The translations under genes were made by a program, and so were the position numbers. 64,000 bases of DNA from Eledone cirrhosa. Lineage: Eukaryota. Below the pieces are notes generated by a model. The model was not told the DNA's origin. It made no database searches and worked only from the letters and a program-made list of their open reading frames with translations. Shown piece after piece: positions 60,469-60,614 of this stretch (within the stretch, counting starts at the first letter, position 1; every line of letters starts with the position of its first letter). The DNA is taken from positions 100,626,001-100,690,000 of the forward strand of contig OZ024741.1 in assembly GCA_964016885.1 (NCBI GenBank), written 5' to 3'.

Positions 60469-60611
60469 ATAGGAACGAGTAGGACCCCGACGGCTGAGCT
60501 CAAGCCATTTCGACGGCTAATTCTGGACTAAATGCTTTAGTCCAGAATCATTTAGTTCGGAATTAGCCCTCGAAACGGCTTGAGCTCAGCCGTCGGGGTC
60601 CTACTCGTTCC

Positions 60612-60614
<3 letters not shown>
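60469..60614. repeat. GC-rich fold-back palindrome (Penelope-like terminus)
   Basis: ataggaacgagtaggaccccgacggctgagctcaagcc... and its reverse complement ending cctat(TA)n. Confidence 0.85.

What the first reader, a model, noticed from the sequence alone, without database searches (positions are those of the whole stretch)
60469..60614. Recurrent architecture: hammerhead 3' halves mirrored around stem II (example 1)
Seen: the right arm reads stem II-GAAA(60572-60575)-CGGCT-tgagctc-AGCCG-TC-gggg, a hammerhead 3' half with stem III and a GUC triplet. Where CUGANGA should precede stem II there is instead the reverse complement of that same 3' half. A degenerate third half follows at ~60664-60693. 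The same design appears with unrelated sequence at 31599-31898 and 26437-26566, each beside (TA)n. Inference: Penelope-like cDNA folds back and self-primes at the long stem II, giving palindromic inserts that lose the catalytic 5' core. This could be an undescribed route to the inverted termini of these elements and a source of intronic dsRNA.
Basis: partly seen in the sequence, partly recalled or inferred. Interest (0 to 1): 0.7.

Follow-up and report, generated by a model that had tools for sequence, protein, structure and literature searches.

The report
Twin-primed Penelope retroelement stubs
This mirror-image stretch is one of more than ten thousand short back-to-back stubs of a Penelope-like jumping gene, a known layout, and the copies show that neither arm was copied from the other: both were likely copied from the element's RNA and likely stop where that RNA begins, which in this family lies inside the self-cutting RNA motif.

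Summary
The palindrome is real (62 of 66 bp). It has at least 10,139 relatives and belongs to a Penelope-like element (PLE) with RT and GIY-YIG domains and Hydra-clade motifs. Inverted copy plus tail is published PLE architecture, and self-priming was proposed in 2013 (PMC3846280).

The "long stem II" is the inversion itself. The parent core is (U/C)UGAGAA, not CUGANGA. In 22 of 59 census insertions each arm holds sequence that the other lacks. The two other families usually keep their core.

Best model: both ends of a cut (TA)n prime on element RNA at two fixed sites, and the cDNAs join head to head. In four families the centres pile against an edge at an initiator-like A, with a TATA-like box about 30 nt upstream in three. 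They likely mark the RNA's 5' end. In this family that edge lies inside stem II, away from stem I. No RNA data were found. The scan noted this architecture before, here and in other genomes.

The parts
60392..60534 (-). Tailed arm of the family-1 PLE insertion: element positions -46..+96 relative to the hammerhead cut site; its 3' end abuts (TA)n
60392..60468 (-). 77-nt one-sided tail (+20..+96) between the two inferred RT start sites; it begins with a bulged hairpin, and in partial tandems it runs on into the ORF leader
60535..60548 (+). 13-14-nt junction insert; 12 nt are a templated duplicate of element positions -44..-33
60549..60614 (+). Tail-less arm, positions -46..+19: initiator-like As at 60550 and 60554, 3' strand of stem II, GAAA 60572-75, stem III, GUC cut site before 60595, 3' strand of stem I; ends in (TA)n
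60615..60640 (.). (TA)n target microsatellite; a second TA-rich run lies at about 60338-60391
   Evidence: sequence
60646..60705 (+). Diverged one-armed stub related to family 1, starting near -39 and ending in TA
   Evidence: local alignment
31455..31905 (.). Family-2 head-to-head stub: tailed arm on the - strand, tail-less arm on +, junction with templated duplications. The parent has a canonical CTGAAGA core and a stem II of about 125 nt; this copy stops short of the core, while most family copies keep it
26383..26566 (.). Family-3 head-to-head stub: tailed arm on -, tail-less arm on +. The parent has a canonical minimal hammerhead (CTGATGA); this copy keeps most of a mutated core at about 26494-26499

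Best explanation
The palindrome is a one-off, truncated insertion of an endonuclease-bearing Penelope-like retrotransposon, likely made by two separate target-primed reverse-transcription events on element RNA whose cDNAs were joined head to head, both likely ending where the RNA begins. Steps: (1, inferred from PMC11167929) the RT-EN protein cuts both strands of (TA)n. (2, end positions shown; priming inferred) one DNA end primes at +19 and the other at +96, each 3-5 nt before a conserved bulged hairpin, which gives one tail-less and one tailed arm. (3, end positions shown; cause inferred) most cDNAs start at the 5' pLTR copy of the mRNA and run off its 5' end at an initiator (-45 or -41), while a minority start at the 3' copy and give arms of up to 3.5 kb. 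(4, junctions shown; repair inferred) the two cDNA ends are joined with 1-4 nt microhomology, bluntly, or with short and often templated inserts. The catalytic 5' half is missing in this family because the inferred start site lies inside stem II, not because of a fold-back.
For: [quoted passage not shown]

Census of all 100 exact 20-mer hits in C1:0-42.6 Mb: 74 insertions, 62 two-armed; 59 of 62 have one tailed and one tail-less arm, 3 have one unclassified end, none has two of a kind. After dropping 3 ambiguous ones, the tail-less arm reaches more than 3 nt further upstream in 22 of 59, the tailed arm in 14, and they are within 3 nt in 23. Long pairs: 12, 7 and 1 of 20 (2 partial tandems left out). 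Five tailed arms stop at +16..+36, around the other primer site, against 0 in +37..+78 (p about 0.004 if uniform), as L1-type twin priming on one RNA would give. Arms share a source: the core variant agrees in 24 of 24 head-to-head pairs (counted by eye; Fisher p 8e-7). 93 distinct junctions among 110 mirrored copies.

Edge: in family 1, 82 of 118 ends lie at -33..-48 and none at -49..-84. Peaks fall at -45 and -41 (28 each of 220), the only two TYAKTY matches in 260 nt of parent, with a TATA-like box 29-31 nt before -41. In family 3, 26 of 33 arms end 0-6 nt after the A of TTAGTT, with a TATA-like box near -30. In family 4, 33 of 38 end at -2..+21, with TATAAATA or CATAAATA near -30. In family 2, 14 of 27 end at -1..+3. 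Family 1 separates the edge from stem I: no pile-up there, the smallest gap among the 24 pairs being 154 nt. In vitro, a PLE protein cuts and extends both strands from two internal RNA sites (PMC11167929, parts 1-2 of 4 read).
Against: No transcript start was observed. The initiator and TATA patterns are recalled consensus motifs applied after seeing the ends, and such motifs are common in AT-rich DNA. Family 2 has no TATA box and misses TYAKTY by one letter. One family-4 subfamily matches neither initiator pattern. The family-1 box is TATATAAA in only one long arm listed; the rest read TATTTAAA, TATTCAAA or TATTCATA. Ends spread 10-20 nt downstream of the edge. In families 2-4 the edge also coincides with the 5' strand of stem I. 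Family-3 ends are conditioned on an anchor next to the edge, and family-4 copies were collected incidentally. Concordant arms could also come from two RNAs of one active master or from later conversion; the partner was the nearest sequence in only 12 of 22 pairs. The 23 near-symmetric insertions, including the window's copy, are individually compatible with fold-back. D. virilis Penelope has a TATA-less promoter (PMC2377424, passages). The hairpins fold only weakly (z -0.4 to -0.8).
Confidence: 0.6

Rival explanations
1. Double priming as above, but both cDNAs stall at an RNA helix or a bound protein in the hammerhead (upper stem II in family 1, stem I in families 2-4), not at the RNA's 5' end.
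For: In families 2-4 the edge lies at the 5' strand of stem I. Minor family-1 stops at +4/+5 and 0/-1 match the bases of stems I and III. Poly(T) inserts at -44 (2 of 110) fit a stalled, stuttering RT.
Against: It needs a different helix in different families. Family-2 cDNAs mostly cross a stem II of about 125 nt (19-20 of 27). Family-1 arms that pass -46 do not stop at stem I. It does not explain the match to initiator-like As or the TATA spacing.
Confidence: 0.25
2. One reading: one cDNA folds back at stem II (or at a local microhomology), primes itself and copies itself to make the second arm.
For: 23 of 59 insertions are symmetric within 3 nt and 14 have the tailed arm longer. Arms agree in subfamily. 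Templated junction inserts exist. Self-priming was proposed in PMC3846280.
Against: 22 of 59 and 12 of 20 insertions have sequence unique to each arm, and in 5 the arms overlap by 4 nt or less. The second arm would have to stop at exactly +19 every time. The stem-II fold-back junction is absent. The parent stem II is not long and perfect.
Confidence: 0.07
3. The short palindromes are a self-propagating MITE- or SINE-like unit copied whole from a few palindromic masters.
For: Copy number is very high. Four copies (L002, L003, L012, L014) share one junction and one variant letter.
Against: 93 distinct junctions among 110 copies. Arm lengths run continuously up to 3.5 kb. The shared-junction copies may be a small exception.
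Confidence: 0.05
4. Assembly or sequencing artefact (fold-back chimeras next to TA repeats).
For: Palindromes beside (TA)n are hard to assemble, and no contig of runs X1-X3 spans the window's copy.
Against: The arms differ at 4 of 66 sites. Outer ends are fixed and family-specific. Head-to-head joints with varied centres appear in contigs of public runs X1-X3 (one sample, which may be the source of the assembly).
Confidence: 0.02

Closest known systems
EN+ Penelope-like element insertions with an inverted 5'-truncated copy and a one-sided tail (PMC8557442, passages and section 11 read; PMC3846280, passages read)
   Same: Head-to-head inverted pLTR, tail on one end only, partial tandems, heavy 5' truncation, (TA)n target, hammerhead in the pLTR.
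   Different: The tail is 77 nt (published: 30-40). Most copies are stubs of about 220 nt with a sharp family-specific centre. The census argues against the self-priming explanation offered in PMC3846280.
Hydra clade of C-terminal EN+ PLEs (PMC8557442 section 11)
   Same: DKT motif, CxCX5C linker, no CCHH, CxxC and CxH near the EN end, no GxKF/Y, (TA)n target.
   Different: RWR rather than RWK; unit of about 3.6 kb; family-1 hammerhead is non-canonical (U3-A8 or C3-A8). No tree was built.
Anolis Poseidon PAc in vitro (PMC11167929, parts 1-2 of 4 read)
   Same: Both strands of AT-rich DNA are cut and extended, two internal RT start sites bound the tail, and uncut RNA is the template.
   Different: The parts read report no difference in start site between strands and do not address the head-to-head junction. 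Here nearly every two-armed insertion uses one site per arm, and start sites share TAT with the target.
LINE-1 twin priming (mechanism recalled; search listing only)
   Same: Two target-primed cDNAs joined at their ends by microhomology give an inversion with the internal priming site next to target DNA.
   Different: In L1 the second site is opportunistic and the arms barely overlap. Here both sites are fixed, it is the normal outcome (62 of 74), and the arms usually overlap by about 60 nt.
PLE hammerheads including the U3-A8 core variant of Schistosoma Cercyon (PMC4209133, passages read)
   Same: Type I topology, G10.1-C11.1 pair, palindromic loop 3, U3-A8 covariation, opposite-strand pairs 100-700 bp apart already noted.
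   Different: Stem III is stable at 5-6 bp. Nearly half of the listed long arms have C3 with A8, a mismatch. Stem II carries the putative promoter.

Membership tests
EN+ Penelope-like element | Single ORF with RT and C-terminal GIY-YIG | tested here: met
   710-aa frame of L146: YRDD at 340, IY..YIG at 584. Atlas neighbours at 0.96-0.99 carry GIY-YIG, RVT_1 and HTH_animal. Direct Pfam and PDB sequence searches gave 0 hits.
EN+ Penelope-like element | Partial tandem forming pLTRs | tested here: met
   L156 and L164: 3'UTR-hammerhead-tail runs into the next ORF leader.
EN+ Penelope-like element | Inverted 5'-truncated copy and one-sided tail | tested here: met
   59 of 62 two-armed insertions have one tailed and one tail-less arm.
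EN+ Penelope-like element | Target-site duplication | tested here: inconclusive
   Insertions sit in (TA)n; no empty allele was seen.
Hydra clade | DKT, CxCX5C linker, no CCHH, CxxC and CxH, no GxKF/Y | tested here: met
   Motif scan, against the description read.
Hydra clade | RWK motif | tested here: inconclusive
   RWR at residue 27.
Hydra clade | Phylogenetic placement of the RT | not tested
   No reference proteins were fetched and no tree was built.
Type I hammerhead ribozyme (family-1 parent) | Three-way junction with GAAA and NUH | tested here: met
   The MFE of L156 gives stems I, II and III. L146 and L057 fold an alternative hairpin, z -0.7 to -1.2. Rfam listed no hammerhead hit in L057 or among the 150 of 210 window rows shown.
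Type I hammerhead ribozyme (family-1 parent) | Canonical CUGANGA core (C3-G8 pair) | tested here: not met
   The core reads TTGAGAA (U3-A8, a published variant) or CTGAGAA (mismatch) in 1,662 arms.
Type I hammerhead ribozyme (family-1 parent) | Self-cleavage | not testable with these tools
   Needs an in vitro assay. The window's copy has no 5' half on either strand and cannot fold a monomeric core.
Type I hammerhead ribozyme (families 2-4 parents) | Canonical CUGANGA core and stems I-III | tested here: met
   Read by eye.
Non-LTR retrozyme or MITE | Short non-coding unit that propagates whole | tested here: not met
   Junctions are mostly unique and arms grade into the coding element.

The most novel reading that the evidence does not exclude
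Penelope-type RT dimers routinely make two strong-stop-like cDNAs from the 5' end of one mRNA and join them head to head, so the centres of these palindromes are a genome-written map of each family's transcription start. In this family the core promoter is built into stem II of the hammerhead, so transcripts from the 5' pLTR begin inside the ribozyme and cannot cut themselves, while the complete ribozyme exists only in the read-through 3' copy.
Probability: 0.45. Interest if true: 0.65.

Novelty: new member of a known kind. Interest (0 to 1): 0.42.

Why it matters
How PLEs form their inverted termini is stated as unresolved (PMC8557442, PMC11167929). This genome holds tens of thousands of independent insertion records that reject self-copying as the general route and support one start site per DNA end. 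They also give exact predictions: start sites at +19 and +96, and RNA 5' ends at -45 and -41. One family separates 'stop at RNA start' from 'stop at stem I', which makes the question directly testable. As a side effect, each stub in an intron would give a 60-200 bp RNA hairpin; whether these are edited or diced is untested.

Tried and rejected
Arm concordance at the C/G letter before GAAA looked decisive at first: 0 C/C, 44 C/G, 10,139 G/G. C is only about 0.2% of arms and can be later mutation, so I did not use it.

Rfam on the window and on L057 listed no hammerhead, only TA-repeat miRNA noise. Pfam and PDB sequence searches of the ORF found nothing. A DNA search with the AT-rich arm of site 31599 found no candidates; a pattern search did.

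RNA test: no RNA holder listed. Three contig runs were laid; they cannot show RNA starts and showed no empty allele.

The first junction parser dropped loci through a faulty duplicate key and was replaced. Four long census pairs were entered by hand. In one search, arms with identical upstream sequence were counted once. (1,204 arms crossing -51 in one variant) is variant-specific and was not used as a rate.

Literature: searches for Penelope + twin priming + inverted (2 papers, neither on PLE insertion by its listing), pLTR + template switch, and PLE + transcription start + truncated copies turned up no paper stating double priming with run-off at the start site. The library lacks most subscription papers, and no supplements were read; supplementary figures of PMC11167929 and PMC8557442 may bear on this. 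The bioRxiv retrozyme paper and PMC9977147 were seen as passages only and added nothing.

Full report
1. Observation. Window 60469-60614 is a near-perfect palindrome: 62 of 66 pairs, predicted RNA fold -122.6 kcal/mol. The right arm has GAAA, a GC-rich stem III with a palindromic loop, and GUC. The window is G000:C2:100626001-100690000 in a 3.0-Gb animal genome. The arm is a very common repeat: 18,656 exact hits of a 20-mer, control 0, and 10,139 mirrored pairs with centres within 30 nt, control 0. The insert is larger than reported: the left arm runs 77 nt further, to 60392, as a one-sided tail. The two other sites have tails as well.

2. The parent. [quoted passage not shown] In partial tandems the tail continues into the next ORF leader (L156, L164). 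Pfam and PDB sequence searches gave nothing. Language-model neighbours carry GIY-YIG, RVT_1 and HTH_animal families. Motifs match the Hydra clade as described in PMC8557442 section 11; that lead came from earlier scan notes. No tree was built.

3. The parent ribozyme. Below, position 0 is the base after GUC. The core is not CUGANGA: 1,662 arms read TTGAGAA or CTGAGAA. The first is the U3-A8 covariant reported for Schistosoma PLEs (PMC4209133, passages); the second breaks the 3-8 pair. The parent stem II is a 6-bp helix with bulges and a weak extension. The long perfect helix in the window is simply the reverse complement of its 3' strand, that is, the inversion.

4. Census. I took all 100 exact 20-mer hits in C1:0-42.6 Mb: 74 insertions, 62 with two arms, 12 with one arm or no partner found. 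Of the 62, 59 pair an arm ending at +19 with an arm ending at +96, 3 have one unclassified end, and none has two of a kind. After dropping 3 that are ambiguous in stem III, the tail-less arm reaches more than 3 nt further upstream in 22 of 59, the tailed arm in 14, and 23 are within 3 nt. Of 55 scored junctions, 25 have 1-4 nt microhomology, 7 are blunt and 23 have inserts. Among long pairs (22 of the 24 seen were fetched, and 2 partial tandems left out) the counts are 12, 7 and 1 of 20, each with one end of each kind.

5. Fold-back is rejected as the general route. If one cDNA copied itself, one arm would be contained in the other. In 22 of 59 and 12 of 20 cases one arm has the tail and the other has upstream sequence that the first lacks; in five the arms overlap by 4 nt or less. 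A fold-back at stem II would leave the loop and the 5' strand at the centre. That junction has 29 hits, and the 10 inspected belong to a subfamily with a one-letter variant and show no loop. Self-priming is also not new: PMC3846280 proposed it for head-to-head PLE palindromes (passages). The inverted copy and tail are standard (PMC8557442, passages).

6. Double priming. The outer ends are fixed and sit in (TA)n. Each is followed 3-5 nt later by a similar bulged hairpin (family 1 sites 1 and 2; site 1 of families 2 and 3 at 4 nt, family 4 at 12 nt). The hairpin lead came from earlier scan notes and was checked here; the folding z-scores are weak. In vitro, the Anolis PLE protein cuts and extends both strands and starts at two internal RNA sites that bound the tail (PMC11167929, parts 1-2 of 4). 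The two arms share a source: the core variant agrees in 24 of 24 pairs (counted by eye), and arms differ by a median of 5 changes within a pair against 15 between pairs, though the partner is nearest in only 12 of 22. One RNA molecule is suggested, not shown, by five tailed arms that stop at +16..+36 around the other start site. Junctions are mostly unique (93 strings among 110 copies), so the stubs are made afresh.

7. Where the arms stop. In family 1, 82 of 118 ends lie at -33..-48, none at -49..-84, and 7 further up. In 110 mirrored copies (a mixed sample from several searches) the tallest peaks are -45 and -41, 28 each of 220. These are the As of the only two TYAKTY initiator-like words in 260 nt of parent; a TATA-like word lies 29-31 nt before -41. 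Three unrelated families show the same kind of edge. Family 3 (site 26437): 26 of 33 arms end 0-6 nt after the A of TTAGTT, with a TATA-like word near -30; the sample is conditioned on a nearby anchor. Family 4 (found incidentally in loci): 33 of 38 end at -2..+21 of an A about 30 nt after TATAAATA or CATAAATA. Family 2 (site 31599; 7,259 motif hits): 14 of 27 end at -1..+3 of the A of TCATTA, with no TATA box. In families 2-4 this edge is also the 5' strand of stem I, so those stubs keep a canonical core. In family 1 the edge is about 45 nt downstream of stem I, and arms that pass it do not pile up at stem I (smallest gap 154 nt among 24 pairs). The simplest common cause is run-off at the RNA's 5' end after priming in the 5' pLTR copy. 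Tandem re-copies of the terminal 10-13 nt at junctions (window, L018, L270) fit a template end. The motif consensus patterns are recalled and were applied after the fact, and no RNA start was observed, so this step is inferred. I put double priming at about 0.85 and run-off, given double priming, at about 0.7. PMC3846280 noted a TATA and initiator-like pair in a rotifer pLTR; D. virilis Penelope has a TATA-less internal promoter (PMC2377424, passages).

8. Context. Exons with Ig and FN3 domains lie on the + strand from 2.6 to 51.9 kb, and a weak Neogenin_C hit (E 2e-5, 14 residues) lies about 9 kb past the window's end (150 of 200 candidate frames scanned, + strand only). All three stubs are therefore likely intronic in a DCC/neogenin-like gene and would form hairpins in the pre-mRNA. 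No effect was tested.

9. Verdict. What the copies add is population-scale evidence for one start site per DNA end and a testable link between palindrome centre and transcription start, with family 1 as the discriminating case. Earlier scan notes reached the same architecture, double priming and a hint of the RNA start on other DNA (173 notes in at least 25 genomes held my search words). My reading was written down before those look-ups, and they are not counted as support. Searches found no paper stating the run-off model; the library is incomplete.

Noticed in passing
window 2582-51896 (+) and L218:7683-9499: Exons of an Ig- and FN3-repeat gene with a weak Neogenin_C hit downstream; likely DCC/neogenin/frazzled-like.
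   Followed up: partly
L019, L037, L049, L090, L155, L257: A fourth hammerhead-PLE family with a canonical CTGATGA core, covarying stem I and a TATA box about 30 nt before the stub edge.
   Followed up: partly
G000, listing: Nearly half of the first 100 long family-1 arms have C3 with A8 in the ribozyme core, a mismatch expected to weaken cleavage, yet this subfamily spread widely.
   Followed up: no
L002, L003, L012, L014: Four copies on different contigs share one junction and one private letter; possibly a palindrome copied whole.
   Followed up: no
L032, L194, L200, L205, L207: A minority of tailed arms begin exactly at the ribozyme cut site (0 or -1), which could mean cleaved template or a stop at stem III.
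   Followed up: no
L035/L036, L056: Poly(T) runs of 13-14 nt at the junction, continuing the TTT at -44..-42; looks like RT stutter at the end of the template.
   Followed up: no
L270, L018, L250, L251: Two or three tandem re-copies of the 5'-terminal 7-13 nt at the junction, reminiscent of telomerase repeat addition.
   Followed up: partly
window 60317-60337: A stub of about 17 nt of the family-1 tail end inside the TA run just left of the insertion.
   Followed up: no
window 9683-9992 and 59998-60307: Two 310-nt copies, 98% alike, of another repeat in opposite orientation 50 kb apart within the same likely gene.
   Followed up: no
window about 60995-62000 (-): A LINE-like fragment with RT-like frames and an (ATC)n end next to the palindrome; called RTE-type from recall, not tested.
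   Followed up: no
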